This document shows positions 25,024-44,768 of a stretch of DNA of 64,000 nt, in pieces. A model generated the notes under the pieces. The model was not told where the DNA came from. It was given only the letters and a program-made list of their open reading frames with translations, and searched no databases. Source of the stretch: Gemmatimonadota bacterium. GTDB lineage: Bacteria; Gemmatimonadota; Gemmatimonadetes; Gemmatimonadales; Gemmatimonadaceae. Positions within the stretch are counted from its first letter, which is position 1, and each line of letters starts with the position of its first letter. The DNA lies in the NCBI GenBank assembly GCA_016704465.1, contig JADJAD010000006.1, positions 380,021-444,020 of the forward strand. Direction: 5' to 3'. The translations under genes and the position numbers were made by a program.

Positions 25024-25073
25024 TTGACATCCTCGCCCTCGACCCCGACTTTGTTTCCCACTCGAACAAAGTC
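25024..25073 (+). promoter_or_regulatory. Putative promoter (-35 TTGACA at 25024-25029) plus palindromic operator GACTTTGTT-N9-AACAAAGTC (25047-25073)
   Basis: A perfect 9-bp inverted repeat with a 9-nt spacer ends 58 nt upstream of ATG 25131. A near-identical site lies at 55838-55860. Confidence 0.6.
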
Positions 25074-25130: not shown

Positions 25131-28100
25131 ATGGGTCCGATTCGCCCCCCCGCTCCCCGACTCCTGCACAGGCGCTGGGTTGCGGTCGCAACCGCCGCGG
25201 CGCTCGCCATCCTCCCCGCCCAAACGCTTTCCGCCCAGACGCTCTCCGCCCAGCGCGTGCAGGTCGTCAGCGACGCCTCCGGCTCGCGTCTCCAGGTCGA
25301 CGGCAAGGACTTCCTGGTTCAGGGGATGAACTGGGACTACTTCCCGATCGGGACGACCTACTCGTACAACTTCTGGGGGCAGTCGGACGCCTTCATCAAG
25401 ACGGCGCTCGATCGCGAGATGTCGCTGCTCAAGAGCATGGGGGTCAACGCGATCCGCCAGTACAACGGCGTCCCCCCCAAATGGGTGCGCTACATCTATG
25501 AGCAGCACGGGATCTTCACCGTCCTGAACCACCCGCTCGGCCGCTACGGCTACACCGTCCGCGGCTCCTACGTCCAGAACACCGACTACTCCGACCCCGA
25601 CGTGCGCAAGGCGCTCGTCGCCGAGGTCGCCGCGCTGGTGGAGCAGTTCCGCGGGACGCCGGGCGTGCTCATGTGGCTGCTCGGCAACGAGAACAACTAT
25701 GGCCTGAGCTGGAAGTCGGCAGAGACCGAGGACCTCCCCGTCGGCGAGCGCGACGCCGCCAAGGCGCGCTACCTGTATTCGCTGTTCGGCGAGACGATCC
25801 GCGCCATCAAGGCGATCGACACCGAGCACCCGGTCGCCATGGCCAACGGCGACCTGCAGTACATCGACATCATCGCCGAGGAGACCAAGGGGCTCGACGT
25901 CTTCGGCGCCAACGTGTATCGCGGCATCTCGTTCGGCGACCTCTTCCAGCAGGTCAAGACCAAGCTGGATATCCCGGTGATGTTCACCGAGTTCGGCGCC
26001 GACGCCTGGAACGCCCGCGAGCTGCGCGAGGACCAGCAGTCGCAGGCGCGCTACCTGCTGGGGCAGTGGGAGGAGATCTACCTCCAGACCGCAGGCAAGG
26101 GACGCGTAGGGAACGCGATCGGCGGCATGACCTTCCAGTGGTCCGACGGCTGGTGGAAGGTGAAGCAGGAGGAACGCCTCGACGTGCACGATACCGACGC
26201 CGGGTGGGGGAACGACGCCTACGGCGACGACTACACGCCCGGCGAAAACAACATGAACGAGGAGTGGTGGGGGGTGGTGGCCAAGGGGCCGGCCGACTTC
26301 CGCGGCCACTTCCAGCTCTTCCCGCGCGCCGCCTTCTATGCGCTGCAGCGCGCGTACGCGCTCGCGCCGTACGGGGCGGGGACAGATCCCGCGGCGATCC
26401 GCTCGCACTTCGCCGGCATCCTCCCCTCGGAGATGGAGCTGCGCGCGCGCGGCGACCGCGCCGCCCTCGCCTCGAGCATCTCGGAGCGCGTGCGTGTGAG
26501 CGGGATGCGCCTGGAACTCTCAACGTTCAGCACCGGCGGCACGAGCATCAGCACCCCGTCATCGGCAACGCCGAGCCCCAACACGTATCCCTCGTTCCAG
26601 GGCTTCGACCGGCTGGAGTCGTTCTTCGCCGAGGTGCAGGCCCAGCCGTCGCAGAACGTGCTGGCGACCATGTCGTTCAACATGCTCGGCAACGTCCCGA
26701 CGAATCCCATTGACGAGATCTTCTACGAGAACCGCGGCCGCCCGCGCACCTTTGTCCAGGCCGACGGCAGCAACTACACCAACACCGGGATCGAGCGCTT
26801 CAAGATGTACCGCGCCAGCGTGGCGTGGGACGAGCGCGACTTCCGCCTCGACGGCTTTTATCGCACCGGGCATTACCACTGGGGCTATGAGGGCGACTTC
26901 TTCGGCCTGTACCGCGAGGCCAACTACGGCCCCAACATCGACATCTACAACGGCGACGCCCCGTTAGGGCGTGGAGTTCACCGGCAAGCGCAAGTTCGAG
27001 GGACTCAAGCTCGCCGCCGGCCCGCAGCTCTGGTGGGGAGCCAACCCCACCGTCCTGGCCAAGTACCGCCGCAAGGTCGGCGCCTTCGACGTGACGACCG
27101 TGTTCCAGGAGGATCTCACGGCGCTCGGCGGAACAGCCTCCTCGTTCGCCGTCCCGCTCCCCGTGCAGCGTACCGCGACCTTGCACCTGGCCACCACCCG
27201 CGGCCGAGCCGGCCTCGAGGTCGGCGGCATCTGGGGCGGGAACACCAAGAACGGGCGCATCTTCCAGATCGCCGACGGCGAACCCGGCAGCTACCGCGTG
27301 CTGCAGGACCGCCTGCGCGATAGTGATGCGTTAGGCGCCAAGGCCAAGGTCACCTATTCGCGCGGCCGCTGGAACTGGTACGCCCAGGGGGCCGCGATGG
27401 GGATCGTGGCCGAAGGGGGACCGACGGCCACCATGACCTACACCGGCTGGGGGCTCAAGGACAGCGGGAGCGGCAACCAGTGGAACGCCCTCTCCGGCTT
27501 CACCTACGCCGTCGGTAACTTCCAGATCGCCCCCAACTTCCTCTGGCAGAAGCCGCTCGTCGGCCCCGTGCCCAACGACGTCCCCGCCCCGGGGCGTCCG
27601 CGCAACATCCTCGCCGACCCGTTCGTCGTGCGCGGCAACCGCGAACAGGTCGCCGGCGAGCTGCTCATCTCGTTCGACCCGACGCCGGCCACGTTCATGT
27701 ACGCCTGGGACGCCGACGTGCGCGAGGATGCCCGCTTGGCCATGAACCTCGGCTTCATCTTCCGCCACCTCCCCACCACGCAGGACGCCGCCGTCGGCAT
27801 CTTCGCCGACGGACGCACGCTGTTCGCCTTCCCCGGCGCCCCGCCGGCCAAGGACCTGTGGGAGGTGCGCTCCCGCATCGTCTCGCGCGTCACCCCCGAC
27901 CTGCGCTTCATCGTCAACCTGTACGGCGGCCCGGCACAGCCTAACGGCAACAGCGCACGCACCGTCAAGCGCTACGGCGGCGACCTGCGCCTCGCCCATG
28001 GCCAGACCAAGGTCATGGCCGCGGCCAAGTTCAACGACTGGGGGCCGTTCGACTACCATCGCGACTTCAACCTCACGTTCCCCTCGCAGCTCATGGGCGA

Positions 28101-28314
28101 CGTGTCGTACGTCCTCGGCCTCCCATCCTGGTTCAACGTGCCGGGGACCCGTTTCGGCCTGCGCGGCACCTGGCGCACACTCGATCGCTTCTCCCCCCGC
28201 TATTGTCCGGATCGCATCCCCGACGCCACCGGGACCGCCGTCTGCGACCCGACCGCTCCGGCCAAGACCGGCCGGGAATGGGAGATTCGTTCGTATCTCA
28301 CCGTCGGATTCTGA
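25131..28314 (+). CDS. Clan GH-A (TIM-barrel) glycoside hydrolase fused to a large beta-barrel-like C-terminal region; frame broken once at 26963-26970
   Basis: Track ORFs 25131-27323 and 26971-28314. The signal peptide is ...AAALAILPAQTLSA. The acid/base-type motif is LLGNENNYGL and the nucleophile-type motif is VMFTEFGADAW. The second frame continues ...VEFTGKRKFEGLKLAAGPQLWWG and ends with an OMP-type terminal strand, EWEIRSYLTVGF. Deleting one G from TTAGGGC joins the frames as ...GDAPLGVEFTG... Confidence 0.65.
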
Positions 28315-28366
28315 CGAACGCCAGGCCGCCTCGCGCGGCCGCCGTTCGCCTGGAGAGAGGAGCTGC

Positions 28367-30595
28367 ATGACCGAGTCGATGGACACCGAGCAGGCCGAGC
28401 CCACTTCGGGCTCGGCCTTTCTCGAGGAACGCATACGCACCCTCCTCCAGCAGATGACGCTGGAGGAGAAGATCGGGCAGATGGCGCAGGTCCCGAGCGG
28501 GGGCGGTCACCTCCCGCACCACCTGCGTGAGGCGATCCAGCGCGGGCAGGTGGGCTCCGTGATCAACGAGGTGGACGTCGCCACCGTCAACGAGTTGCAG
28601 CGCACCGCGGTCGAGGAGTCCCGGCTCGGCATCCCGCTGCTCGTGGGACGCGACGTCATCCACGGCTTCGCCACCGTCTTCCCCATCCCGTTGGGCCAGG
28701 CCGCCAGCTGGAACCCGCGGCTGGTCGAACTCGGCGCGCGCATCGCCGCCCACGAGGCGGCCTCGCGCGGCGTGAACTGGACCTTCGCCCCCATGATCGA
28801 CATCTCGCGCGACCCGCGCTGGGGGCGCATCGCCGAGTCGCTGGGCGAGGACCCGTTCCTGACCGGCTCGTTAGGTTCGGCGATGGTGCGCGGCTTTCAA
28901 GGCGAGGACCTCTCGGCCCCGGGTAGCATCGCCGCCTGCGCCAAGCACTTCGCCGGCTACGGCGCCAGCGAGAGCGGCAAGGACTACAACACCACCAACA
29001 TCCCCGAGGGGGAGCTGCGCAACGTCTACCTCCCGCCGTTCCAGGCGGCGGTGGATGCCGGCGTCGCTTCGATCATGACCTCGTTCAGTGACCTGAACGG
29101 CGTCCCGGCGACCGCGAACACGCTCATCCTGCAGCAGATCCTGCGCGATGAGTGGGGCTTTGACGGGTTGGTCGTGAGCGACTGGGACTCGATCCACCAA
29201 CTGGCGGTGCACGGCTTCACCGCCGGCGACCGCGACTCGGCGTTCGAGGCGGCGACTGCGGGCGTGGACATGGAGATGGCCAGCCAGACGTACGCCCACC
29301 ACCTGGCCTCGCTCGTCCACGACGGTCGCATGACCATCGAGCACATCGACACGATGGTGTCGAACATCCTGCGCACCAAGTTCCGGCTCGGGCTCTTCGA
29401 CACGCCGTACACCGACCCGTCGATGCTCCCCGACATCGCCGCCCCCGAGCACCTCGCCGCCGCGCGACACGCTGCGGTGGAGAGCCTCGTATTGCTCAAG
29501 AACGACGTTCGCGTGCTCCCGCTCTCGGCCGAGTCGCTCGCGTCGGTGGCAGTCATCGGCCCCTTGGCCGACGATCCGCAGGAACAGCTCGGAACGTGGA
29601 TCTTCGATGGCGATGCACGGCACAGCGTCACCGCGCTGCAGGCGATCCGGGACATGGTCGGCGACCGGGTAACCGTCCATCACGCCCGCGGTGTGGACAC
29701 GACGCGCAGCCACGATCGCAGTGGATTTGATGACGCCGTGCGCGCCGCCGAGCAGTCCGACGTCGTCGTGATGTTCCTCGGCGAGGAGGCCATTCTCAGC
29801 GGCGAGGCGCACTGCCGTGCGGACATCGCGCTCCCCGGCAACCAGGAGGCGCTGATTGACGCGCTCGCCGCGACCGGCAAGCCTCTCGTGCTCGTCCTGA
29901 TGACCGGGCGCCCGCTCGCCCTCGAGCGCGTGGTGCCGAAGGTGCACGCCGTGGTGTGCGCCTGGCACCCGGGGAGCCTCGGCGGCCCCGCCATCGCCGA
30001 CGTGCTGTTCGGCGTCGAGTCGCCTTCTGGCAAGCTCCCGGTCACGTTCCCAAGAGTGACCGGCCAGATCCCCATCTATTACAGCCACAAGCACGGCGGA
30101 AAGCCCGGCACCCCTGAGACCTTCGTCCACATCGACGACATCCAGGCGAGGGCGCCTCAGCTCTCCGTCGGCAACACGTCGTTTCACTTCGACGTGCATT
30201 ACTCCCCACTCTATCCGTTCGGGCACGGCCTGTCGTACACCACGTTCGAGTACGACAGCGTGCGGGTCGATCCGCCGGAGCTGGCCGTGAGCGGCACCAT
30301 CACCGTGAGCGCCGAGGTGACCAACACCGGCGATCGCGACGGCACCGAAGTCGCGCAGCTGTACGTGCGTGACCTCGTCGGGAACGTCACCCGCCCCGTA
30401 AAGGAGCTCAAGGGATTCCAGCGGGTCTTCCTTGCGGCGTACGAGCGACGCACCGTCTCGTTCACGCTCACGCCCGAGGATCTTTCGTTCTTTGGCCGAG
30501 CGAACACGCGCATCGTCGAGCCCGGGCGTTTTCATGTCTGGATCGGCGGGAGCAGCGACACCCAAACGCGCGCAGAGTTCGACCTCACTGACTGA
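28367..30595 (+). CDS. GH3 beta-glucosidase (BglX-like)
   Basis: Inner part of track ORF 27998-30595. ATG 28367 follows GGAGAGAGGAG. Motifs: LEEKIGQM, GRDVIHG, KHFAGYG, the nucleophile region GLVVSDW, and a C-terminal FnIII-like domain. Confidence 0.9.
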   Translation: MTESMDTEQAEPTSGSAFLEERIRTLLQQMTLEEKIGQMAQVPSGGGHLPHHLREAIQRGQVGSVINEVDVATVNELQRTAVEESRLGIPLLVGRDVIHGFATVFPIPLGQAASWNPRLVELGARIAAHEAASRGVNWTFAPMIDISRDPRWGRIAESLGEDPFLTGSLGSAMVRGFQGEDLSAPGSIAACAKHFAGYGASESGKDYNTTNIPEGELRNVYLPPFQAAVDAGVASIMTSFSDLNGVPATANTLILQQILRDEWGFDGLVVSDWDSIHQLAVHGFTAGDRDSAFEAATAGVDMEMASQTYAHHLASLVHDGRMTIEHIDTMVSNILRTKFRLGLFDTPYTDPSMLPDIAAPEHLAAARHAAVESLVLLKNDVRVLPLSAESLASVAVIGPLADDPQEQLGTWIFDGDARHSVTALQAIRDMVGDRVTVHHARGVDTTRSHDRSGFDDAVRAAEQSDVVVMFLGEEAILSGEAHCRADIALPGNQEALIDALAATGKPLVLVLMTGRPLALERVVPKVHAVVCAWHPGSLGGPAIADVLFGVESPSGKLPVTFPRVTGQIPIYYSHKHGGKPGTPETFVHIDDIQARAPQLSVGNTSFHFDVHYSPLYPFGHGLSYTTFEYDSVRVDPPELAVSGTITVSAEVTNTGDRDGTEVAQLYVRDLVGNVTRPVKELKGFQRVFLAAYERRTVSFTLTPEDLSFFGRANTRIVEPGRFHVWIGGSSDTQTRAEFDLTD

Positions 30596-30603: not shown

Positions 30604-32441
30604 GTGACCACTCACGACACTCATATGAAAGATTCCACGCAGGATGACACCACGCCCGCCCGTGTGATGGACTTGCTCGCGCGAATGAGCCTGGACCAGA
30701 AGTTGGGGCAGATGCTGCAGCCCGAGCGTTTGTCCGTCACTCCCGACGACGTACGCGCGCATCACTTCGGCTCCATCCTGAGTGGTGGCGGCTCCACGCC
30801 AGGGGAGAACCGTCCGACCGACTGGGTCGCCATGAACGACGCCTACTGGGCCGCGTCGATGAGTGACGAGGAAGGCCGCGTCCCCATCCCGTTGCTGTAC
30901 GGCGTCGATGCCATCCACGGCAACGCCAATGTGTTAGGCGCGACGGTCTTCCCGCACAACATCGGGCTGGGGGCGGCCAACGATCCCGACCTGCTGCAGC
31001 GCATCGCCGAGGCGACCGCGAAGGAGATCCTGTCCACCGGCGTCGAGTGGACCTTTGCCCCGACGCTGGCCGTGGCGCGCGACATCCGGTGGGGACGCAC
31101 GTACGAGTCGTACTCCGAGGACCCGGCCCTCGTCGCGAGTTATGCCGGGCGCTTCGTGCGCGGGCTGCAGGGCGATTTAGGGCGCGACGGCGTGGTGGCA
31201 TGCGCGAAGCACTGGGTCGGCGACGGCGGCACACGGGACGGCTTCGACCAGGGGGAGACCGACATTCCCGAGCGCGAACTCGTCGAGACCCACATCGCTC
31301 CGTATCTCCCGGCGCTCGCCGAGGGGGTGCTGACCGTCATGGCGTCGTTCAACAGCTGGAACGGGGTCAAGTGCCATGGGCATCGCTACTTGTTGACCGA
31401 CGTGCTCAAGGCGCAGCTCGGCTTTGCGGGCTTTGTCATCAGCGACTGGGACGGCGTGGACTACCTGGACGCCGACTACGCCACCGCCATCGCCAAGGCG
31501 GTCAACGCCGGCGTGGACATGCTGATGGTGTCGGTGGAATGGCGCGCCTGCCTGGAACACCTCAAGCGCCTCGTGAGCGACGGGACGATTCCGCTGACGC
31601 GCATCGACGACGCCGTGCGGCGCATTCTGCTGGTGAAGCATCGTTACGGCCTGTTCGAGCGCCCGCGTCCCGGCAAGCGATACTGGTCCAGGCACAACGT
31701 GCTCGGGGCGCCCGAGCATCGCGCGATTGCCCGCGAGGCCGTGCGGAAGTCGCTCGTGTTGCTCAAGAATGAAGGGGGCGTGTTGCCCATCGATAAGGGG
31801 GCGCGCATCCTGGTCGCCGGGCGCAACGCGGACAACCGGGGGCATCAGTGTGGCGGGTTCACCGTGGCGTGGCAGGGGGCGTCGGGGAACGACTTCATCC
31901 ACGGGGGGACATCGATCTGGGAGGGGATTCGGGAGGTGGCGCCGCAGGCGGAGCTCAGCGTCGATGGCAGCGCTGCGGAGGCAGGGTCGCATGATGTGGC
32001 GATCGTGGTGATCGGGGAGCGGCCGTATGCGGAGGGGATGGGGACCTGCGGGGGGCGGAGACGGCGGGGGCGGGGTCAGGGCCGGGGGGGAAGCACAATC
32101 GGTTGAAGCCGTATGGCGACACGCTGGAGCTGGCGGCGTTGCATCCTGAGGACTTGGCGACGATTCGGGGGATTCAGGAGAAGGGGATTCCGGTTGTGAC
32201 GGTGTTGGTGTCGGGGCGGCCGTTGGTTGTGAATCGGGAGTTGGAATGCTCGGCGGCGTTTGTGGCGGCGTGGTTGCCGGGGTCGGAGGGGGGTGGGGTT
32301 GCCGACGTCTTGTTTGGCGCGCAGGAGTTCCAGGGGAGGTTGTCGTTTGCGTGGCCGGGGACGGGTGATGCGACGACGGCTGTGGCTCGGGGGGAGGAGT
32401 CGCTGCTTTCGCGCGGGTACGGGCTGCGGCTGGCGGTGTAG
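30604..32441 (+). CDS. GH3 beta-glucosidase / exo-beta-glucanase, frame broken once in a G-run near 32034-32045
   Basis: Track ORFs 30604-32106 and 32103-32441. Motifs: LDQKLGQM, GVDAIHG, KHWVGDGG and GFVISDW. The first frame ends ...ERPYAEGMGTCGGRRRRG*. The other frame reads GDLRGAE...KPYGDTLELAA...VSGRPLVV...WLPGSEGG. The start could be GTG 30604 or ATG 30625. Confidence 0.75.
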
Positions 32442-32522: not shown

Positions 32523-33048
32523 TGTCCGTCGGAGGGGGCCAAATACGGCGCGGACTTCACGTGCTTTGGCGGGCGCTACGAGAGTGGTCCCTCTTGTAGC
32601 GGTCCTCGCCGGGATGGAGCAAATTCACCCTCGCAGCGACGGATTGCGTCCCACGTGCCGGTCCGTCGTTGTTCAACGTGCGGCGGGGGGCAGCACCTGG
32701 TCCGCCGGCCCCCTCCGATGGCTATTGTGATTATCACGTGTTGTGTCGCATGATAATCCGGGCGGTTCCCGGGGAGCCCGGTGTCGAAGTCGGTGACTCT
32801 CAAGGGTTTGGATCGCCCGACGCGAATGCGACTGTCCGGAATTCGCATGCGCGGCGCCGGGCTGATAATGTGGTGGTTGCAGGTGTTCGCTGGATTCTCA
32901 ACTTCCGGTGAAGTAGCGTTGAACTAAACCGCTGCGCGGTAGTTGTTGTTGAGGACGGTTCTCCGAGCGGGGCCGTCCTTTTGCGTGTAGGGGAGTGTCC
33001 GTAACGTCGCGGGTGCAGGTCCTGCTTCCCCCGCTGACGGAGGTTTCG

Positions 33049-33924
33049 ATGCAGACGCTCACCGACCGGATGAGCGAAGACATGCGGCTGCGTGGCTTCG
33101 CGCGCACGACCCAGCTGGCGTATCGCGGTGCCGTGGTCCGATTGGCCGCGCATTTCGCGCGATTGCCCGACACGTTGGACACGCTCACCGAAGCCGAGCT
33201 GCGCGCGTTCTTCGTGGAGCTGGTCACGACGCGCCACGTGTCGCGCAGCACGTTGATCGTGTATCGCACCGGCATTCGGTTTTTGTACGAAGTGACGTTG
33301 CAGCGCACCTGGCCGGTGTTCGATCTCGTGCGCCCGGCGAAGCGCCACGTCCTGCCCGTCGTGCTGTCGCCCGAGGAAGTGCGCGCGCTGCTGGCGTCCG
33401 TGCAGGATCTCCGCGCCCGCATGGCGCTGATCGCGATCTATTCGTGCGGGCTCCGCGTGTCCGAAGGCGTCAGTCTGCACACCCGGGACATCGATAGTGT
33501 CCGCATGCTCGTCCATGTGCGCGCCGGCAAAGGCGGGCGGGATCGCTATGTGCCGCTGCCGCAGCGCACGCTCGAGCTGTTGCGGGTGTACTGGCGCACC
33601 GCCGCGCCGCGCCCCCGGTTCGGGCTCCCGCGTGGCCCGTGGCTCTTCGCGAATCGCGCAGCCACCGGCCCGTTGCAGGCGACGAGCCTGCAGAAGACGT
33701 TTGCGGCCGTCGTGCGCCGCAGCGCGCTGACCAAACACGCGTCGATCCACACCCTGCGGCATTCGTATGCGACGCATCTGCTCGAGTGCGGCGTGCATCT
33801 CCGCGCGATTCAGGAGCTGTTGGGCCATAAGAGTCCGGCGACCACCGCCGTCTACACGCACATCACCCCGCAGGTGACGAGTGTGTTGCAGCGCACGCTG
33901 AATGCCCTGATGGCCCCGCTGTAG
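33049..33924 (+). CDS. Tyrosine site-specific recombinase (phage-integrase family; Xer-like, not IntI-like)
   Basis: Inner part of track ORF 32995-33924. ATG 33049 follows GGAGG. Motifs: CGLRVSE, GKGGRDRYVPLP, HTLRHSYATHLLECG and LLGHKSPATTAVYTH. The GKG-to-LRH spacing is about 79 aa, so the IntI-specific insertion is absent. Confidence 0.85.
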   Translation: MQTLTDRMSEDMRLRGFARTTQLAYRGAVVRLAAHFARLPDTLDTLTEAELRAFFVELVTTRHVSRSTLIVYRTGIRFLYEVTLQRTWPVFDLVRPAKRHVLPVVLSPEEVRALLASVQDLRARMALIAIYSCGLRVSEGVSLHTRDIDSVRMLVHVRAGKGGRDRYVPLPQRTLELLRVYWRTAAPRPRFGLPRGPWLFANRAATGPLQATSLQKTFAAVVRRSALTKHASIHTLRHSYATHLLECGVHLRAIQELLGHKSPATTAVYTHITPQVTSVLQRTLNALMAPL

Positions 33925-33943
33925 CCTCCCGGCGGGACCGGCC

Positions 33944-35074
33944 ATGACCGTGGCCGCGGTCGTGCGAGAGTTCGGGCCGGCGTACGTGGCGCGCTTCGGC
34001 GCCACGATGCCGCCGGGCCATCGGCGTGCCCTCGAGGACCTGGCGGCCTGTCGCACCGCCGCCATGGGCGGACACGTCACGCAGTGCGACGCGTGCGGCC
34101 ACGAGCACTTCGTGTATCACTCGTGCCGCAATCGGAGCTGCCCGTCGTGTCATGGCGCGAGCACGCGCGCGTGGCTCGCCGCGCGCGCGACGGAGCTGCT
34201 CCCCGTGCCGTACTTCCATGTGGTGTTCACGCTCCCCGCCGACTTGCGGGCGATCGTGCGCACCCATCAGCGCGTCCTGCTCCCGGTGCTGCTGCAAACG
34301 GCGGCCGCCTCGCTCCAGGCGCTCGCCGCCGATCCGCACCATCTCGGCGGCACCGTCGGCATGCTCGCCGTCTTGCACACGTGGACCCGCACGCTCGTCT
34401 ATCATCCGCATGTGCACTGCTTGGTGCCCGGCGGCGCCCTCGCGCCCGATGGGGTCACGTGGCGCCCTGCGCGTGGACAGTATCTGGTCCCGGTGCGCGC
34501 GCTGTCGGCTGGCTTTCGCGCGCGCTTCCTGTTGCGCCTGAAGCGGGTCCTCCCCGCGGTCGTCGTGCCGGCCACCGTGTGGACGACGCCCTGGGTCGTG
34601 TACGCGAAGCCCACGGTGCAGGGCGCGGCCCTCGTGCTTCGGTATCTCGCGCGGTATGTCCATCGCGCGGCCATCACCGACGCGCGCATCCTGCGCGTCG
34701 ACGCCGCGACCGTGACGTTTCGCTATCAGGACGCCCGAGCGCGGGCGTGGCGCACGATGACGCTCCCGGGCGAGGAGTTCCTGCGGCGCTTCCTGCAGCA
34801 CGTGTTGCCGCGCGGCTTGCATAAAGTCCGCTACTACGGCTGGTGGCGCCCGCAGGCGGCGGCCGTCCGCGTGCGGCTGCACCAGCAACTCACCGCCCCG
34901 GCGTCCCGTCCCCCTCCGGGTGATCCGCCGCCAGACGCCGCAGCCGCGCCCGCCCCCGGCTGCCCCCCCTGCCCACCCTGCCCACACTGTGGGGCCGGGC
35001 ACCTGATCCGAACGCGACGCCTCCTCCGTACGCACACGGTCGCGTCCGACCGGACGCGCGCGAGGCCGCCGTAG
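33944..35074 (+). CDS. IS91-family (Y2, HUH-type) transposase
   Basis: The N-terminal zinc-binding region is CDACGHEHFVYHSCRNRSCPSCH. The core motifs are LHTWTRTLVYHPHVHCLVPGGAL and YLARYVHRAAI. Confidence 0.85.
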   Translation: MTVAAVVREFGPAYVARFGATMPPGHRRALEDLAACRTAAMGGHVTQCDACGHEHFVYHSCRNRSCPSCHGASTRAWLAARATELLPVPYFHVVFTLPADLRAIVRTHQRVLLPVLLQTAAASLQALAADPHHLGGTVGMLAVLHTWTRTLVYHPHVHCLVPGGALAPDGVTWRPARGQYLVPVRALSAGFRARFLLRLKRVLPAVVVPATVWTTPWVVYAKPTVQGAALVLRYLARYVHRAAITDARILRVDAATVTFRYQDARARAWRTMTLPGEEFLRRFLQHVLPRGLHKVRYYGWWRPQAAAVRVRLHQQLTAPASRPPPGDPPPDAAAAPAPGCPPCPPCPHCGAGHLIRTRRLLRTHTVASDRTRARPP

Positions 35075-35418
35075 TGCGCGCGCCGTCGTCGCGTCGTCCC
35101 GTACCCCCACCACCCGCCCGTCCGGCGCGCGCCACCGCCCGTGGCGTCGACGGGTCGCGCGCATGCGTCGGCCAAACCCCCGTGCGCACCGGCGACGATG
35201 CGTCCCCCACGTCACAGCCACGACCGACACGCCGCGCGCGCCGGACGACACGGCGCGGTCGCCCCCGGTGGTCCAGGTAGCGCCGAGCGCGCAACGGGTG
35301 CAAACTCCATAGAGCCAGGTCGGCGGTTCAGTTCAACTGAGGTTTGGCGTCGGCTGCGCGACGCAAAACCTCTGATTCGTTCGGCCGCTCCATCACTCTC
35401 CGGGACTCGGGTTAAGGA

Positions 35419-36513
35419 ATGACATTTCGACCGCAAGAGCCTGCCGAGCCACTTCGCTACACGGTAGAAGGAGTCGTACTGGAAAGTGATGAGGGAGACG
35501 TGAGATTGGCGGGCACATTCACTCGCCCACAATCAGGCCTCAGGACAGCCGCCGTCCTACTCATTCCGGGATCGGGCGCTCATGACCGTGACGAGCAGGT
35601 GTGTGGACATCGCCCATTCCTCGTCCTCGCGGATCACCTGACCCGTTCCGGAATTGCCGTGCTGCGTTTGGATGATCGCGGTGTTGGCGAATCGACGGGC
35701 GACAAGGATCAGTGCACGCACAACGACCTACTGCGGGATGTGCGCTTGGCGCTGGAGTTTCTGGCCGCGCACGAGGATGTCGATGCAACCCGACTTGGCC
35801 TCATCGGCCATAGCGAGGGAGCCGTGTTGGCGGCGGCCGCTGCGACGCGGTACAAGCAGCTTGCGTTGATAGTGCTCATGGGGTGTCCGACACTTCCGGG
35901 CGAACAGACTATTCACGAACAGTCAGCGCTCATCTCCCGGCAGGCAGGAGCTACCGATGCACAAGTTGCACACGAGCGGCGAATGAATGAAGAGGTGTTT
36001 GCGGTTCTCAAGTGCCCAATCAGACACGAGTCTGCGCGCGAGCAGATTCTTTCGATTCTCGCATCCCACCTGAAATCTTGGCAGGACCAGCCGGTCGAGG
36101 ATGACGAAGTGGCAACGCACATTAACCGGATGGCTGATACCGTGCTGACGCCGGCTTTTCGGTCGTTCTTGAACTGCGAGCCTGCCCTCCATTTTCGGCG
36201 GGTTCGCTGCCCCGTACTGGCTCTCTTCGGCGAACTCGACATTCAGGTGCCACCGGCCTTGCATATGCAGGTGCTTAGGGAAGCATTGTCGGCAGCAGGC
36301 AATCCTGATGTCACAATCGAGGAGTTTCCTGGCTTGAACCATCTTTTTCAGACTGCAACAAGCGGCGCGATATCGGAATACGAGGTGATTGAAGAGACCA
36401 TCGCGCCTTCGGTGCTGGAGCGACTTTCCGATTGGATTCGTTCGCGCACTCATGACGGCGCTGCCGAACAACAGCATGCAGCGGACGTCGCTGCGCGCCG
36501 CCGCTCATGCTGA
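35419..36513 (+). CDS. Alpha/beta hydrolase (cassette ORF 1)
   Basis: The nucleophile elbow is LIGHSEGAVLAA. Also present are LLIPGSGAHDRDE and the late motif GLNHLF. GC is lower than the flanks. GTTAAGG precedes the ATG. Confidence 0.8.
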   Translation: MTFRPQEPAEPLRYTVEGVVLESDEGDVRLAGTFTRPQSGLRTAAVLLIPGSGAHDRDEQVCGHRPFLVLADHLTRSGIAVLRLDDRGVGESTGDKDQCTHNDLLRDVRLALEFLAAHEDVDATRLGLIGHSEGAVLAAAAATRYKQLALIVLMGCPTLPGEQTIHEQSALISRQAGATDAQVAHERRMNEEVFAVLKCPIRHESAREQILSILASHLKSWQDQPVEDDEVATHINRMADTVLTPAFRSFLNCEPALHFRRVRCPVLALFGELDIQVPPALHMQVLREALSAAGNPDVTIEEFPGLNHLFQTATSGAISEYEVIEETIAPSVLERLSDWIRSRTHDGAAEQQHAADVAARRRSC

Positions 36514-36522
36514 GCGTTCGGC
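36463..36522 (+). other. attC-like site (60 bp): GCCGAAC ... GTTCGGC
   Basis: The sequence is GCCGAACAACAGCATGCAGCGG-acgtcgctgcgcgccg-CCGCTCATGCTGAGCGTTCGGC. The outer 7-mers are perfectly complementary, the spacers are unpaired, and the inner arms have one bulged base. The site overlaps the last 17 codons of the hydrolase ORF. Confidence 0.6.
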
Positions 36523-36598
36523 AGACCGATGAGTAGCAGCGTATTTGCTGCGCACTACGCCACGCTCCAGCGCTTTTCCGGCTTTGATGGGACATTGA

Positions 36599-36904
36599 GT
36601 GCTGCATCACTTCCTCCTCCTTCGAGATCGCTTGGCCGGCAAGTTGTTCGGTCTCACGGTCCTTGCCGTTCTTGTCGTGGGGTGGGCGTGGGTCACCATG
36701 CGGGCGCGCTCCCTCCATGATCGGGAGGACTGGGTCTGGTGCCAAGGCGCCTACGCGCGCGCTAAGACGGCTGCTGAATCCACCGGGCTTGACGCCTCCT
36801 ACCCACCCAACCGCGGGCGTTCAACGGTACTGAGCTTGCGATGTCGCGATCGGCGACGCCAATTCGAGCAGCCGTCCGTCGCACCTACTCGGTCCAATCC
36901 ATAG
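36599..36904 (+). CDS. Small hypothetical membrane protein (cassette ORF 2)
   Basis: 101 aa with one TM-like segment (KLFGLTVLAVLVVGWAWV). It is bracketed by attC-like sites. No family was recognised. Confidence 0.35.
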   Translation: MLHHFLLLRDRLAGKLFGLTVLAVLVVGWAWVTMRARSLHDREDWVWCQGAYARAKTAAESTGLDASYPPNRGRSTVLSLRCRDRRRQFEQPSVAPTRSNP

Positions 36905-36914
36905 TGCGCGCGCT

Positions 36915-37012
36915 GCCGAACGGACGCTGCAACAGACAGCGGATCTATTGAATCGTGCGGCCTGCGGCCGCACTCTATTTGCCTCCGCTGCAGTTGAGCT
37001 CAGGCGTTAGGC
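36915..37012 (+). other. attC-like site (98 bp): GCCGAAC ... GTTAGGC
   Basis: The left arm GCCGAACGGACGCTGCAACAGACAGCGG pairs with the right arm CCGCTGCAGTTGAGCTCAGGCGTTAGGC. The central hairpin is GTGCGGCC-tgc-GGCCGCAC. The site starts 10 nt after the ORF stop. Confidence 0.55.
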
Positions 37013-37172
37013 CGCTAGTAAGGCGATCGAAGCGAGCAAGGAACCGCGCCGCCACCCGCGGGATGCGACGGAGGAATAGCGGCTTCCAACGACGGCAGCG
37101 TTTCCAGTCAGCGACGCGTACCTGACACATATGGCTTGCTTAGCACGCTGACACATCTACAGGGAGGGGAAG

Positions 37173-37937
37173 TTGACCAATGCACTCGAAGGTCGCACCG
37201 TCAGACTCAGGCCACCGGCAACGGCCCTGATCTTCACTCTGAGCCTCGCCACCTTGGCGTGTTCGAGCGATCCAACGCAACCTGTCACGTCCGCTCCCGA
37301 TCTCGGCAAGCCGTCGGTTGCGCTGGCCACCCTCGTGACCAGCTCCGGGATTGCCGATCAGTTCACGACGCTCAACACCTCCGTCTGGTGGCAATCGGCA
37401 TACCAGACTCCCACGAAGAACGGCTACTTTCGGACTTCGAACGCCACGGTCGCTGGTGGGAATCTGGAATTGTGGCTACCGAAGAACACGTATGACGGTG
37501 GGCAAGTGGAGACCAGGCTCTCGTACGGGTACGGGACATACGAGGCGATCATGAAGTGTTCGCCCGCCCGCTCAGCCCTTTGCACCGTGTACTCGTATGC
37601 CAGCAATGGGGATGAGATTGACATCGAGGTCTACTACAGCGGCGGCTGGAAGCTCGACTTCCTAGTATGGAAGCGCGGGGTGAAGAGCTGTCGACAAGCG
37701 ATTGCGGCGCCGTTCGATCCGAGCGCTGCCTATCACACCTACACATACGCCTTTTCGTCATCAGCAGTCCGATTCTACGTTGACGGCGTATTGAAGTCTT
37801 CGTGTGTGTCGACACTGAGTCTGCCAGCTCCGAGTATGAAGTTTCTCTTGTCCGCATGGCAGCCCAGCTGGCTGAACGTAAGCAAGCCTACAAGTACGAC
37901 CGCCACGCGCGTAACGGCCGCCTACTATCGTCCGTAG
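37173..37937 (+). CDS. GH16 / concanavalin-like glucanase-fold lipoprotein (cassette ORF 3)
   Basis: The TTG start follows GGGAGGGG. The lipobox is LSLATLAC. The GH16-type catalytic strand is SNGDEIDIEVYY (ExDxE). Confidence 0.7.
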   Translation: MTNALEGRTVRLRPPATALIFTLSLATLACSSDPTQPVTSAPDLGKPSVALATLVTSSGIADQFTTLNTSVWWQSAYQTPTKNGYFRTSNATVAGGNLELWLPKNTYDGGQVETRLSYGYGTYEAIMKCSPARSALCTVYSYASNGDEIDIEVYYSGGWKLDFLVWKRGVKSCRQAIAAPFDPSAAYHTYTYAFSSSAVRFYVDGVLKSSCVSTLSLPAPSMKFLLSAWQPSWLNVSKPTSTTATRVTAAYYRP

Positions 37938-37968
37938 TCCAATGAAAGATGCAAAGGGCGCGGGAGCG

Positions 37969-38217
37969 GCCTAACAAGCGCTTGAGGCTGGCGCCAGCGC
38001 GCTCCGCGCGCTGGCGCTCCGTTGAAATGCGGCGCAGCTTAAGCGTAGCGTTGAGGATGTAGGATAAGTCGACGGTCGAATCCGAACCGTTCGTTGTGGA
38101 AAATTCGACGGCCACAGTTGCCCCAGGATCGACGATCGCCTCATCGATGATGGTTTCGGTATGGAGGAAATCGGATCAAGCGGCGGGGCTCGGACTTATC
38201 TTACAGCCTCGTTAGGC
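37969..38217 (+). other. Long attC-like composite (249 bp): GCGGCCTAAC ... GTTAGGCCGC
   Basis: The outer 10-mers are perfectly complementary. Internally there is a 12-bp GC hairpin (37990-38020) and a second pair of arms, GAGGATGTAGGATAAGTC (about 38054) and GACTTATCTTACAGCCTC (about 38193). This may be two sites enclosing an ORF-less cassette. Confidence 0.4.
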
Positions 38218-38233
38218 CGCTTCCCAATTGCTG

Positions 38234-39106
38234 ATGACTCGTCGCAGCTCGACGCTCTGGCGCCGCTTTGAACTGGTCGTTGCCTCCTTGGAGCGAGCGC
38301 TGAGTCCCCAAGGCGCGGTCGTTACGTCTCCAGATCGCTTGCGCGATCGGGTCACCGGTCGACTCCGCGAGGTGGACGCGACCGTGCGCATTGTACGTCC
38401 CAACGGAACCGAGGAGCTGACAGCAATCGAATGTCGACGCCGGAAATGCCGACAGGATGACCCGTGGATCGAACAGCTCGCCTCGAAGCAGCACAAGATC
38501 GGAGCCGATCGCGTGATCGCCGTCTCCTCTAGGGGATTCTCCGAATCTGCCAAGCTGTCGGCCAATCACTTCGGCATCGCTCTCCGCACACGTGCTGAGC
38601 TTTCCGACCCCCGCGAAGTCGAAAAGTTGTTCGCTGGCTATTCGTTGGCGGCAACCATTACGGACTTCCAAGTGTTCTCGATCGATCTAGTCGATCGTGA
38701 CGGGGTTCAGTTGCCTCGACACGAACTGGAAGCGCTCTTTTCGAGTACCTCACTCGATACCAAGTTCCTTCTCGACGAGAACGGGCGTCCATGGGGCTCA
38801 GCTGATGGCGTCTGCCGCAGGATTGGCGATCACGACGTCCCAGTCGATGGCACGCCAGTAGAGAAGTGGTCGACAATCATATTTCCCGCACGCCTGGCCT
38901 TCGTGCGCCTTACAAGCGGACTTCGAGAGCTCGGCTCAATGAGACTTGGAGTCCGCTTCGCACGATACACGCGCTCTTTTACGAAGTCCTATTCCGCCTC
39001 GTATTCATCGCTCGACGCGAAGCTGACGACAGTTCTGTCTGGCGACGCGGTCCTCGATGGCGGGGAACGACTGGTCATGACGGTTCATCTCGCTGAGCCG
39101 TCGTAG
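38234..39106 (+). CDS. Hypothetical protein with N-terminal PD-(D/E)xK (restriction-endonuclease-like) signature (cassette ORF 4)
   Basis: Track ORF 38228-39106. ATG 38234 lies 16 nt after GTTAGGC. The N-terminal 120 aa resemble Mrr-type nuclease cores: FELVV...REVDATVRI...LTAIECRRRK...VIAVSSRGFSESA. The C-terminal roughly 170 aa are unassigned. Confidence 0.5.
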   Translation: MTRRSSTLWRRFELVVASLERALSPQGAVVTSPDRLRDRVTGRLREVDATVRIVRPNGTEELTAIECRRRKCRQDDPWIEQLASKQHKIGADRVIAVSSRGFSESAKLSANHFGIALRTRAELSDPREVEKLFAGYSLAATITDFQVFSIDLVDRDGVQLPRHELEALFSSTSLDTKFLLDENGRPWGSADGVCRRIGDHDVPVDGTPVEKWSTIIFPARLAFVRLTSGLRELGSMRLGVRFARYTRSFTKSYSASYSSLDAKLTTVLSGDAVLDGGERLVMTVHLAEPS

Positions 39107-39147
39107 CCCGCCGCGGCCTAACGGTAGTTGGAGCAGACGGCGGAACC

Positions 39148-40390
39148 TGCCTCACTTTGGTTGACACTTCCACCTAACTGAGATCGGAGGTGTCTGATGC
39201 CACGCGCGGGGCCGAGGAAGATTCAGAAGTACAGCGATGCGTTCAAGCTGACGGCGGTGCGCATGACCCAGCAGCCGGGGATGCAGGTGAAGACGGTGGC
39301 GGCGGGACTCGACATTCACCCCTTCATGCTGTCGCGCTGGCGCAAGGAAGTGCGCGACGGCGTCATTCGTGGGCGTCTCCCGCGCCGCACACCGGCCGGT
39401 CCGTCCCGGGATCTGGTGCAGCTGCAGGCTCGAGCGAGCGCGCACGCGCTGTTGCAGGAGGAGCACGACCTCCTAAAAAAAGCCATCCGGTTCTGTTCCG
39501 CTCGAAGGCCGAAACGTTCGCCTTCATCGACACCCAGTACGCCACGTACGGCGTGACGCGGCTCTGTCGTCGCTACGGGGTCACGCGCGCCGGGTATTAC
39601 GCCTGGCGCCGCCGCCCCCTCAGCGCCCATGCGCAACAGGACCGGACGTTGCTCACCGAGATTGCGCGCGTCTTCGCCCAGCACCACGGCCGCTACGGCA
39701 GTCCGCGCATCCATCAGGTGCTGACGACGCGTGGCTGGGCGGTAAGCCGCCGTCGCGTCGCCCGCCTAATGTACACCGCCGGGCTCCGCGCCAAGGCGGT
39801 GCGCGGCTATCGCGCGAAGGTCGGCACGCATCGCTTCTACGAACAGCATCCCAACCGCGTGCGCGCCCTCGCCGTCCAGCGTCGCAATCAGGTGTGGGTG
39901 GGCGACATCACCTACCTCACCGTCGCAGGCGAATGGCGCTACCTGGCCGTCGTGATGGATCGCTTCTCCCGCCGGATCCTCGCGTGGACCCTGCAGCGGC
40001 GCCGGGACGCACGGGTGACCACGGCCGTCCTACGGACCGCGGTGCGACACCGCCGCCCCCCGGCGGGCCTCACGTTTCACAGCGACCGCGGGTCCGAATA
40101 TCTGGCCGCCCCGTTTCGCGATCGCCTCCGTGCGCTCGGCATTCAGCAGAGCGCCAGCGTCAGCGGTCCGGGAGACAATGCGCACATGGAGTCCTTCTTC
40201 CACTCCTTCAAGGCCGAGGCGGTCCGCGGCGTCGCGTTCGCGACCGAGCGCGCGCTCCGGCAGGTGCTCCGGCACTACTTCCGCTACTACAACCACACCC
40301 GCTTGCATTCCGCGCTTGGCTTTCGGTCTCCAGTTGACTACGAGTCGGAGGCGGCGTAGTTCCCTACGAGCTGTCAACCAAAGTGGAGCA
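39148..40390 (+). mobile_element. IS3-family insertion sequence (about 1243 bp)
   Basis: The terminal inverted repeats TGCCTCACTTTGGTTGACA (39148-39166) and TGTCAACCAAAGTGGAGCA (40372-40390) match at 17 of 19 positions and have TG...CA ends. The element carries the orfA/orfB transposase with an A7G slippery site. No clean direct repeat was seen; the flanks are GGAACC and GGATCC. Confidence 0.85.
39197..40359 (+). CDS. IS3-family transposase OrfAB (programmed -1 frameshift at AAAAAAAG, 39475-39482)
   Basis: OrfA (track 39197-39556) has an HTH region, SDAFKLTAVRM...FMLSRWRKE. OrfB is in the -1 frame (track 39190-40359) with a DDE core: WVGDITYL, FHSDRGSEY and NAHMESFFHSFKAE. Confidence 0.85.
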
Positions 40391-40519
40391 GGATCCCAAG
40401 GGATCTATCGTGTGCGCGCGGCTCCCCCGCGCGCTCTATCAAGTTCCCTTGCAGGTGAACTAGGACGTTATGCCGTCAAGTGAGCGTAGGTGCTCGCATC
40501 AACAGAGGGAGTCGTCGCT

Positions 40520-41347: not shown

Positions 41348-41389
41348 CGGTTGAGTGCAACGAGCAAATGCAACACGCATGAATGCCAC

Positions 41390-41450
41390 GCCTAACCACT
41401 CGGTTGAGCCGACTTGCCTTCGGCAAGCGGCTCACCTCGGACGGTTCGAC
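41390..41450 (+). other. attC-like site (61 bp): GCCTAAC ... GTTCGAC
   Basis: The sequence is GCCTAACCACTCGGTTGAGCCGACTTGCC-ttc-GGCAAGCGGCTCACCTCGGACGGTTCGAC, an imperfect palindrome with bulged bases that starts 42 nt after the ORF stop. Confidence 0.55.
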
Positions 41451-41627
41451 ATCAGCCTGACTTCGCCGCTATTTCCAGCGATGTCTCATGCTCGTCCCAC
41501 CATTTCGAATCGCCTCCCGAAGGAACTAGCACTCATCTACCGCTGATAGCCTGAGGTGCATGACGCGTGCAGTCGACTCCTCAGGTAATACTCTCTCTCC
41601 GAGATCGCCACTTGGGCGCAGACAACA

Positions 41628-41654
41628 ACGGGCGCCCCTCATCAGGGCGCCCGT
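41628..41654 (-). terminator. Hairpin ACGGGCGCCC-N7-GGGCGCCCGT downstream of the 41680-43512 gene
   Basis: A 10-bp GC stem lies 26 nt beyond the stop and is followed on the - strand by TTGTTGTC. It also marks the right edge of the lower-GC island. Confidence 0.5.
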
Positions 41655-41679
41655 CGTCATTCACGTCTCGATCCGCGAC

Positions 41680-44741: not shown

Positions 44742-44768
44742 CGCGCTGACACCAGTCGCGCCCCAGGG

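What the first reader, a model, noticed from the sequence alone, without database searches (positions are those of the whole stretch)
25024..25073. Shared TT-N9-AA palindromic operator links two beta-glucan operons to the ROK regulator
GACTTTGTT-tcccactcg-AACAAAGTC (25047-25073) lies 58 nt upstream of the GH-A/GH3/GH3 operon. CTTTGTT-tggcgagcg-AACAAAG (55838-55860) lies 66 nt upstream of the operon encoding the glycan-binding protein, ROK regulator, GH16 and GPH symporter. In both cases a TTGACA hexamer lies 19-21 nt upstream of the operator, so a bound repressor would cover the -10 region. I saw no other copy in the window. E. coli ROK repressors NagC and Mlc recognise sites with the TT(N9)AA arrangement. 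The ROK protein at 52075-53313 is therefore the obvious candidate, and it would be autoregulated.
Basis: partly seen in the sequence, partly recalled or inferred. Interest (0 to 1): 0.6.

Follow-up and report, generated by a model that had tools for sequence, protein, structure and literature searches.

The report
ROK repressor operators, laminarin gene cluster
Two copies of one 23-25 bp palindrome sit on the core promoters of two beta-1,3-glucan (laminarin) degradation operons in a Gemmatimonadota genome. They are almost certainly the binding sites of the sugar-sensing ROK-family repressor encoded in one of those operons, which makes this a well-supported but ordinary sugar switch in a little-studied phylum.

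Summary
TTTGTT-N9-AACAAA occurs at 25050-25070 and 55839-55859. These are the only two copies in the 6.1 Mb genome (about 0.007 expected) and no one-mismatch copies exist. Each lies downstream of a perfect TTGACA and overlaps the predicted -10.

- In 61 related genomes, the four with an orthologue of the ROK regulator (79-81% identity) are the same four with two perfect palindromes, on the same contig as that gene.
- In 80 further loci from Gemmatimonadota and Eisenbacteria (ROK 59-79% identical), 64 carry the site, and four control patterns give 0. The sites lie upstream of the lipoprotein-ROK-GH16-GPH operon and of the convergent GH-A/GH3/GH3 operon.
- The consensus is ACTTTGTTCG-N5-CGAACAAAGT. 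A matrix built from other genomes finds only these two sites in this genome.
- The geometry matches NagC/Mlc operators (23 bp, TT/AA at +/-5,6). The protein's wing (GGRR) is the type that pairs with C/G at +/-11, as seen here.

Binding, repression and the inducer remain inferred.

Special to this genome: about 17.6 kb of mobile DNA splits the normally contiguous 13.4 kb cluster, and two hydrolase genes show frame breaks.

Verdict: new member of a known kind, with low to moderate interest.

The parts
25048..25072 (.). Operator O-A: ACTTTGTT-TCCCACTCG-AACAAAGT. The 23-bp core is 25049-25071. It lies on the promoter of the GH-A/GH3/GH3 operon.
   Evidence: Sequence. PWM score 30.7 bits, one of only two genome hits above 12 bits. 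Arms conserved and spacer variable in four congeners and in 24 listed A-type promoters.
25024..25029 (+). -35 hexamer TTGACA of the GH-A operon promoter. The -10 candidate GACTTT at 25047-25052 (17-nt spacer) overlaps the left arm of the operator.
   Evidence: A perfect TTGACA lies exactly 20 nt before TTTGTT in 19 of 24 listed A-type promoters. The -10 is inferred from spacing only and was not called by the consensus scanner.
25131..28314 (+). Gene A: clan GH-A-like TIM-barrel hydrolase with a long C-terminal part. It is about 1091 aa in intact orthologues. Here it is split by a frame change near 26968-27047 (ORFs 25131-27323 and 26971-28314).
   Evidence: Weak Pfam Glyco_hydro_2_C hit. tblastn of the intact L064 orthologue maps to two frames.
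27998..30595 (+). Gene B: GH3 beta-glucosidase, BglX-like.
   Evidence: Pfam GH3 N and C domains plus Fn3-like. NCBIfam BglX 721 bits, above the cutoff of 666.
30604..32426 (+). Gene C: second GH3, whose best partial match is an exo-beta-1,3/1,6-glucosidase model. The ORF ends at 32106. The last ~120 residues of orthologues are encoded in another frame up to 32426, with a frame change near 32034-32043.
55837..55861 (.). Operator O-D. On the minus strand it reads TCTTTGTT-CGCTCGCCA-AACAAAGC. The 23-bp core is 55838-55860. It lies on the promoter of the lipoprotein-ROK-GH16-GPH operon.
   Evidence: Sequence. PWM score 34.6 bits, the top genome hit. Footprint. Matches the 61 listed D-type promoters.
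55882..55887 (-). -35 hexamer TTGACA of the D-operon promoter. The -10 candidate CATTCT at 55864-55859 (17-nt spacer) overlaps the first two operator bases.
   Evidence: A perfect TTGACA lies 22 nt before TTTGTT in 35 of 61 listed D-type promoters, with a range of 20-23 in most others. CATACT is the usual -10 candidate. Not called by the scanner.
53334..55772 (-). Gene D: 812-aa predicted lipoprotein (LTAC lipobox). It has no confident family match and is the first gene of the regulator's operon.
   Evidence: Only a sub-threshold Big_2 hit. No NCBIfam or PDB match. Syntenic in nearly all orthologous loci.
52075..53313 (-). ROK-family transcriptional regulator (412 aa). It has a winged HTH (ISRADIARQAGLSRSTVSE), a wing with SSGGRRP, a ROK sugar-binding domain and a His/Cys zinc motif.
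   Evidence: Pfam ROK 2.3e-56 plus HTH families. End-to-end alignment to Mlc 1Z6R, VC2007 1Z05 and Lmo0178. Best NCBIfam model is NagC (216 bits, below the equivalog cutoff). Family alignment.
51257..52078 (-). GH16 endo-beta-1,3-glucanase (laminarinase). Its start overlaps the ROK stop.
   Evidence: Pfam GH16. E = 1e-75 to solved beta-1,3-glucanases and laminarinases.
49713..51260 (-). GPH-family glycoside:cation symporter. The true start is probably near 51260, abutting the GH16 stop. The longest ORF starts at 51392.
   Evidence: Pfam MFS_2 4e-62. TIGR00792 gph. The orthologue alignment starts at 51260.
32900..49650 (.). Not part of the regulon. This is a genome-specific ~17 kb insert that separates the two normally adjacent, convergent operons. 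It carries an IS91-type transposase, a tyrosine recombinase, cassette-like genes, a TetR gene and others.
   Evidence: In G002, G004, G009 and dozens of other loci, genes C and G are only ~0.4-0.5 kb apart. Pfam Y2_Tnp/Zn_Tnp_IS91, Phage_integrase and TetR. Earlier scan notes.

Best explanation
The two palindromes are operators of the cluster-encoded ROK-family regulator, a NagC/Mlc-like winged-helix plus sugar-binding protein. A ROK dimer, or a dimer of dimers, recognises the two half-sites ACTTTGTTCG and CGAACAAAGT.

Each operator starts inside or right after the -10 hexamer, 17 nt downstream of a perfect TTGACA, and runs across the expected transcription start. The bound protein would therefore block RNA polymerase, that is, repress by promoter occlusion.

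The regulon is strictly local. It comprises the operon lipoprotein D-ROK-GH16 laminarinase-GPH symporter, which makes the regulator autoregulated, and the operon GH-A hydrolase-GH3-GH3. Together these form a beta-1,3-glucan (laminarin-type) utilisation system.

A sugar made by these enzymes, most likely laminaribiose, a short laminari-oligosaccharide or glucose, would bind the ROK domain and release the repressor.

Shown here: uniqueness of the sites, their conservation, their co-occurrence with the regulator, the promoter geometry and the family architecture.

Inferred: binding itself, repression rather than activation, and the effector.
For: 1. Uniqueness. There are only two exact copies in 6.1 Mb and none with one mismatch, against about 0.007 expected. 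A 27-position matrix built solely from other genomes' sites gives 34.6 and 30.7 bits for these two sites and nothing else above 12 bits.

2. Phyletic co-occurrence. Among 61 relatives, the full-length ROK orthologue occurs in G000, G002, G004 and G009, and exactly these have two perfect sites on the same contig. Fisher p = 2.9e-5.

3. Wide conservation. 64 of 80 orthologue loci (ROK 59-79% identical; Gemmatimonadota and Ca. Eisenbacteria) carry 66 exact and 18 one-mismatch sites in 1.17 Mb. Four permuted control patterns give 0. The sites lie upstream of D and upstream of A.

4. Footprint. In diverged intergenic DNA only the -35, the operator arms and the RBS/start are conserved, while the operator spacer varies.

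5. Geometry. A perfect TTGACA lies 22 nt (D promoters) or 20 nt (A promoters) before TTTGTT in most of the 61 D-type and 24 A-type promoters listed.

6. Family fit. NagC/Mlc operators are 23-bp quasi-palindromes with invariant TT/AA at +/-5,6 and a specificity position at +/-11 (PMC4288165). Thermotogae ROK regulators bind 23-bp palindromes, and BglR controls laminarin/beta-glucoside genes and responds to glucose and cellobiose (PMC3553997). Here TT/AA are at +/-5,6, C/G is at +/-11 in 88% of half-sites, and the wing has the NagC-type G and R at the two specificity positions.

7. The HTH recognition helix SRSTVSE is almost invariant in the family, matching the invariant arms.

8. All departures from dyad symmetry in 74 unique sites are one-sided, with no compensatory pair apart from a single TA at +/-3. 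This is as expected for protein half-sites.

9. ROK is the only DNA-binding protein in the conserved 13.4 kb cluster.
Against: - There is no experimental or transcript evidence.
- The -10 elements are weak by the E. coli consensus (CATTCT, GACTTT) and were not called by the promoter scanner, so the exact overlap with the -10 and +1 is inferred from spacing.
- The protein is below the NCBIfam equivalog cutoffs for NagC and Mlc, so rules taken from those proteins are analogies.
- Variation in the wing (GGRRP vs GGRPP) does not track the base at +/-11 across loci.
- Sixteen of 80 loci lacked a site at one mismatch or fewer. Most of these are short contigs that end before the promoter, two have two-mismatch sites, and one (L114) has none.
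Confidence: 0.88

Rival explanations
1. ROK binds the palindromes but acts as an activator, or as a dual regulator, rather than a repressor.
For: NagC can activate some promoters (established knowledge of the family). The -10 elements here are weak, and weak promoters are often activator-dependent.
Against: The site lies downstream of the -35 and over the -10/+1 region at fixed spacing in about 80 promoters. This is a repressor position, whereas activator sites normally lie at or upstream of -35. The characterised local ROK sugar regulators of Thermotogae are repressors released by sugars (PMC3553997). The -35 is a perfect TTGACA.
Confidence: 0.06
2. The palindrome is the operator of a different transcription factor, for example the TetR gene at 47733-48443 or a regulator encoded elsewhere. 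Its link to ROK would then be only by neighbourhood.
For: No binding data exist. A TetR-family gene lies between the two operons in this genome.
Against: The TetR gene sits in a genome-specific insert that is absent from the compact cluster of relatives. The motif is absent from congeners that lack the ROK orthologue. The 23-bp TT-N9-AA architecture is that of ROK operators. No other DNA-binding gene is conserved in the cluster.
Confidence: 0.03
3. The inverted repeat works as a nucleic-acid hairpin, such as a 5'-UTR stem-loop, attenuator or processing/stability element, and not as a protein-binding site.
For: The extended repeat could form a 10-12 bp stem with a 5-nt loop.
Against: The arm sequence itself is invariant over 59-80% protein identity. 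In 74 unique sites every deviation is one-sided, with no compensatory change apart from a single TA at +/-3. With the -35 at a fixed 20-22 nt, transcription should start inside the palindrome, so the RNA would lack the left arm.
Confidence: 0.02
4. The two copies are a chance coincidence or a dispersed repeat.
For: None beyond the short length of the arms.
Against: About 0.007 copies are expected per genome and two are seen, both on the promoters. 84 sites in 80 orthologous loci against 0 for controls. The flanks outside the -35 and the operator are unrelated.
Confidence: 0.01

Closest known systems
NagC and Mlc operators of Escherichia coli (ROK-family repressors; PMC4288165)
   Same: The operator is a 23-bp quasi-palindrome with TT/AA at +/-5,6 and an informative position at +/-11. 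The protein has the same winged HTH, G/R-rich wing, ROK domain and zinc motif, and aligns end to end with Mlc. The wing is NagC-type (G and R at the two specificity positions) and is paired with C/G at +/-11.
   Different: It is not an orthologue: 216 and 189 bits against equivalog cutoffs of 650 and 530. The arms are far more strictly conserved (TTTGTTCG) than the loose NagC/Mlc logo. It controls beta-glucan genes rather than amino-sugar or PTS genes. Each promoter has a single operator, with no sign of the two-operator loop of nagE-nagB. It is a local regulator, not a global one.
BglR (TM0032) and the other ROK sugar regulators of Thermotogae (Kazanov et al. 2013, PMC3553997)
   Same: It is a local, autoregulated ROK repressor of a laminarin/beta-glucoside utilisation operon. 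The operator is a 23-bp palindrome close to the start of the controlled operon. The regulon is inferred by the same comparative-genomics logic.
   Different: The operator sequence differs (BglR site AATTTCTTTCTGAGGAAGATAGA). The phylum differs. Orthology to TM0032 was not tested. The effector here is unknown. Transport is by a GPH symporter rather than an ABC system.
XylR of Bacillus/Firmicutes (ROK xylose repressor)
   Same: It is a ROK repressor of a sugar operon that binds a palindromic operator over the promoter region and is released by the sugar (my own knowledge; a XylR structure, 4IJA, matches the protein at 1.5e-20).
   Different: The sugar, the operator sequence and the gene content all differ.

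Membership tests
ROK-family transcriptional repressors (NagC/Mlc/XylR type) | N-terminal winged helix-turn-helix fused to a C-terminal ROK (actin-fold sugar-binding) domain | tested here: met
   Pfam ROK 2.3e-56 over residues 91-397, plus MarR/IclR/HTH_24 hits over 23-66. Aligns over residues 24-398 with Mlc 1Z6R and 3BP8.
ROK-family transcriptional repressors (NagC/Mlc/XylR type) | Zinc-binding His/Cys signature (H-x9-C-x-C-G-x2-G-C) | tested here: met
   GHLTIDLSGDPCDCGNRGC is present. H251, C261, C263 and C268 are invariant in 14 family members. The usual Glu after the last Cys is Q/A/V/T in this family.
ROK-family transcriptional repressors (NagC/Mlc/XylR type) | Gly/Arg-rich wing (linker) after the HTH | tested here: met
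   SSGGRRP is present. G74, G75 and R76 are invariant. In the Mlc alignment, G and R fall at the two positions that distinguish NagC (G, R) from Mlc (R, P).
ROK-family transcriptional repressors (NagC/Mlc/XylR type) | Operator is a ~23-bp palindrome with TT/AA at +/-5,6 | tested here: met
   CTTTGTT-N9-AACAAAG. The frequency of T at -5 and -6 and of A at +5 and +6 is 0.95 in 69 unique sites. Literature rule.
ROK-family transcriptional repressors (NagC/Mlc/XylR type) | Specific binding of the protein to the operator, relieved by a sugar effector | not testable with these tools
   This needs EMSA, DAP-seq or reporter assays.
NagC or Mlc orthologue (NCBIfam equivalogs NF047937, NF049930) | Score above the curated equivalog cutoff | tested here: not met
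   216 bits against 650 (NagC) and 189 bits against 530 (Mlc). It is a distinct ROK subgroup, not NagC or Mlc.
Local beta-glucan regulon of BglR type (Thermotogae) | The regulator gene lies inside the controlled beta-glucan utilisation cluster and has its own operator upstream (autoregulation) | tested here: met
   ROK is the second gene of the D operon, 20 nt after D and overlapping GH16. The operator is upstream of D in nearly all loci.
Local beta-glucan regulon of BglR type (Thermotogae) | Orthology to TM0032, and glucose/cellobiose as effectors | not tested
   No comparison with TM0032 was made. The effector cannot be determined in silico here.

The most novel reading that the evidence does not exclude
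The ROK protein and its almost unchanged 25-bp operator may be the conserved master switch of a self-contained beta-1,3-glucan utilisation module with no SusC/D genes seen. The module would be shared, probably by descent and lateral transfer, across Gemmatimonadota, Eisenbacteria and neighbouring uncultured phyla, and would respond to a laminari-oligosaccharide rather than to glucose. In this genome the module has been cut in two by an integron/IS insertion, yet both operators are intact, so the regulator would now act in trans over 30 kb.
Probability: 0.45. Interest if true: 0.4.

Novelty: new member of a known kind. Interest (0 to 1): 0.3.

Why it matters
Gemmatimonadota and Eisenbacteria are abundant in soil, sediment and wastewater but are barely cultured, and almost nothing is known about their gene regulation. 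This operator-regulator pair gives three things:
- a precise, testable regulatory element;
- a marker for laminarin-type beta-glucan utilisation loci in metagenomes;
- about 80 aligned natural promoters that define the -35 and spacing of sigma-70-type promoters in these phyla.

It also extends the NagC/Mlc pairing of wing residues with the +/-11 base to a distant lineage. Conceptually it is a standard sugar-operon repressor, so it does not change our understanding of regulation.

Tried and rejected
- The consensus promoter/terminator scanner called neither promoter, because the -10 hexamers match TATAAT at only 2-3 of 6 positions in this genome. The promoter assignment therefore rests on the universally conserved TTGACA and its fixed spacing.
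- I looked for covariation between the ROK wing (GGRRP vs GGRPP) or HTH and the base at operator position +/-11 or +/-10 across 80 loci. There was no clean correlation, so it is not used as evidence.
- PDB sequence searches for gene A and gene D found nothing, and NCBIfam found nothing for D. Their functions remain open, and I did not spend structure predictions on them.
- The three exact TTTGTT-N9-AACAAA copies in G018, a genome without the orthologue and with lower G+C, score poorly with the full matrix (below 8, 14.7 and 21.9 bits) and lack CG at +/-3,4. I treat them as unrelated or chance.
- The G030 copy scores 30 bits but precedes a mannitol-dehydrogenase/PfkB operon. It lies 16 kb from a 30%-identical ROK paralogue with a different recognition helix, so the link is unresolved.
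- The TetR gene at 47733-48443 was considered as an alternative regulator and rejected, because it lies in a genome-specific insert.
- Two literature searches found no description of this regulon or motif.

Full report
**Observation**

- Site 1: GACTTTGTT-TCCCACTCG-AACAAAGTC at 25047-25073. A TTGACA lies at 25024-25029 and the ATG of the first plus-strand hydrolase gene is at 25131.
- Site 2: CTTTGTT-TGGCGAGCG-AACAAAG at 55838-55860. A minus-strand TTGACA lies at 55887-55882 and the minus-strand ATG of an 812-aa lipoprotein gene is at 55772.

The core TTTGTT-N9-AACAAA has only these two matches in the window even with two mismatches allowed (0.13 expected). In the whole 6.1 Mb, 68% G+C assembly it has two exact copies, no one-mismatch copy and nine two-mismatch copies. 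About 0.007 exact copies are expected from base composition.

**Genes**

The window is C6:380021-444020 of a Gemmatimonadota (Gemmatimonadaceae) metagenome-assembled genome.

The minus-strand operon is tightly packed:
- lipoprotein D (53334-55772), with no family match;
- a ROK regulator (52075-53313);
- a GH16 enzyme (51257-52078) that matches solved endo-beta-1,3-glucanases/laminarinases at 1e-75;
- a GPH symporter (49713 to about 51260).

The plus-strand operon encodes:
- a clan GH-A-like TIM-barrel protein;
- a BglX-like GH3 (721 bits, above the NCBIfam cutoff);
- a second GH3, whose best partial match is an exo-beta-1,3/1,6-glucosidase model.

Together these make a beta-1,3-glucan (laminarin-type) utilisation system.

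**The regulator**

The 412-aa protein has a winged HTH followed by a ROK domain.
- It aligns end to end with Mlc (1Z6R), VC2007 (1Z05) and Lmo0178.
- It keeps the His/Cys zinc signature and a wing reading SSGGRRP.
- Its best NCBIfam models are NagC (216 bits) and Mlc (189 bits). Both are far below the equivalog cutoffs, so it is a separate ROK subgroup and not an orthologue of either.

**Link between regulator and motif: close relatives**

Among 61 related genomes, only G000, G002, G004 and G009 have a full-length orthologue (79-81% identity). These same four each have two perfect palindromes on the contig that carries the gene. Fisher p = 2.9e-5.

In the three relatives the two operons are convergent and adjacent. 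They form one 13.4 kb cluster bracketed by the two palindromes, with ROK as its only DNA-binding protein.

Alignment of the four promoter pairs shows that only three things are conserved in otherwise diverged DNA: the -35, the two operator arms and the RBS/start codon. The operator spacer varies.

**Link between regulator and motif: distant relatives**

A profile of 14 family members retrieved 80 loci from Gemmatimonadota and Candidatus Eisenbacteria, with orthologues 59-79% identical.
- 64 loci carry the palindrome. That is 66 exact and 18 one-mismatch sites in 1.17 Mb, against zero for four permuted control patterns.
- Most loci without a site are short contigs that end before the promoter. 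Two have two-mismatch sites.
- The sites lie upstream of D and upstream of A in the arrangement [site] D-ROK-GH16-GPH > < GH3-GH3-A [site].
- The consensus from 69 unique sites is ACTTTGTTCG-N5-CGAACAAAGT.
- A weight matrix built from these foreign sites scores the two window sites at 34.6 and 30.7 bits and finds nothing else above 12 bits in the genome.

The regulon in this organism is therefore just these two promoters.

**Mechanism**

In the orthologous promoters a perfect TTGACA precedes the first T of TTTGTT at a near-fixed distance:
- 22 nt in D promoters (35 of 61 listed, with most others at 20-23 nt);
- 20 nt in A promoters (19 of 24 listed).

With a 17-nt spacer the -10 hexamer is CATACT (CATTCT here) for D and xACTTT (GACTTT here) for A. 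It therefore overlaps the left edge of the operator, and transcription should start inside the palindrome. A protein bound to the 23-25 bp site would cover roughly -12 to +14. This is promoter occlusion.

This part is inferred. The -10 elements are weak by the E. coli consensus and the simple scanner did not call them.

An RNA or DNA hairpin role is unlikely. In 74 unique sites every departure from symmetry is one-sided, with no compensatory pair apart from a single TA at +/-3. The transcript would also lack the left arm.

**Comparison with known systems**

NagC and Mlc operators are 23-bp quasi-palindromes in which only TT/AA at +/-5,6 are invariant. The base at +/-11 (C/G for NagC, A/T for Mlc) is read by wing residues: G and R in NagC, R and P in Mlc (PMC4288165).

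Here TT/AA fall at +/-5,6, C/G is at +/-11 in 88% of half-sites, and the wing residues aligned to the two Mlc positions are G and R. The site and the protein therefore fit the NagC-type pairing. Across the 80 loci, however, wing variants (GGRRP vs GGRPP) do not track the +/-11 base, so I treat this as consistency and not as proof.

The ROK regulators of Thermotogae also bind 23-bp palindromes. BglR (TM0032) is an autoregulated repressor of laminarin/beta-glucoside genes that is released by glucose and cellobiose (PMC3553997). That is the closest functional analogue.

By analogy, the effector here is probably glucose or a beta-1,3-linked disaccharide. This is a guess. The canonical sugar-contacting NDAN and ExGH motifs are conserved in the family, while the Glu after the zinc motif is replaced by Q/A/V/T.

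**What is particular to this window**

- The two operons are 30.8 kb apart instead of forming a contiguous cluster. About 17 kb has been inserted between the convergent 3' ends. It carries an IS91-type transposase with a tyrosine recombinase, a TetR gene, and DUF305 and ADH-like genes. According to earlier notes of this scan it also carries an integron cassette array and an IS3.
- Genes A and C are interrupted by frame changes relative to intact orthologues (1091 and 625 aa). Without reads I cannot tell whether these are homopolymer assembly errors or decay.
- A strong terminator-like hairpin followed by T6 (24891-24927; -27.3 kcal/mol, z = -4.05) insulates the A promoter from the upstream gene.

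**Novelty**

I found no paper describing this regulon or motif. Several earlier agents of this scan reached the same reading for the equivalent locus in other genomes. Those notes agree with mine but are not independent evidence.

The element is a new member of a well-known kind: a local ROK sugar repressor with a palindromic operator. My confidence is 0.88 that these are ROK operators working by repression. Confidence in any particular effector is lower. Interest is low to moderate.

Noticed in passing
window 32900-49650: About 17 kb of genome-specific DNA splits the normally contiguous convergent cluster. It holds a tyrosine recombinase (32995-33924) with an IS91-type Y2 transposase (33944-35074), a TetR regulator (47733-48443), and DUF305, ADH-like and DUF2283 genes. 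Earlier notes add an integron cassette array and an IS3.
   Followed up: partly
window 26968-27047 and 32034-32043 (also 28349-28403): Genes A and C are broken by frame changes relative to intact orthologues (A 1091 aa and C 625 aa in L064). The N-terminus of B also aligns best in a different frame. These are either homopolymer assembly errors or real pseudogenisation, and could not be checked against reads.
   Followed up: partly
window 24994-25023: A (CCCCGT)n tract ends exactly at the -35 TTGACA of the GH-A promoter. It is absent from the aligned promoters of the three congeners, so it is not part of the conserved regulatory element.
   Followed up: partly
window 24891-24927: A strong intrinsic-terminator-like hairpin (GCGGCCCaCUCC-GGAAA-GGAGcGGGCCGC followed by U6; -27.3 kcal/mol, z = -4.05) lies about 100 nt upstream of the GH-A promoter. 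The simple terminator scan missed it because of the bulge.
   Followed up: yes
L046 (G030:C153) 18848-18868: A near-perfect copy of the same operator (TTTGTTCGTTTAACGAACAAA, 30 bits) lies in the divergent region before a mannitol-dehydrogenase-family/PfkB kinase operon. It is 16 kb from a 30%-identical HTH-ROK paralogue with a different recognition helix. It may be a second sugar regulon that uses a similar operator.
   Followed up: partly
L124 7390 and 7482; L128 3875, 6935, 7083: Some Eisenbacteria-type loci carry two or three operator copies close together (92 bp apart in L124). This could allow cooperative binding or looping as at nagE-nagB.
   Followed up: no
genome contig C8:63644-63664 (outside the window): A different good palindrome, TTAGTTAGC-G-TTGCTAACGAA, turned up among the two-mismatch hits. 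It is probably the operator of another regulator. Its context was not examined.
   Followed up: no
window 53334-55772 (gene D) and 25131-28314 (gene A): Both conserved first genes of the two operons lack any confident family or PDB sequence match. D is an 812-aa lipoprotein. A is a GH-A-like barrel plus about 600 aa of unassigned sequence. Both are candidates for novel glucan-binding or uptake functions.
   Followed up: no
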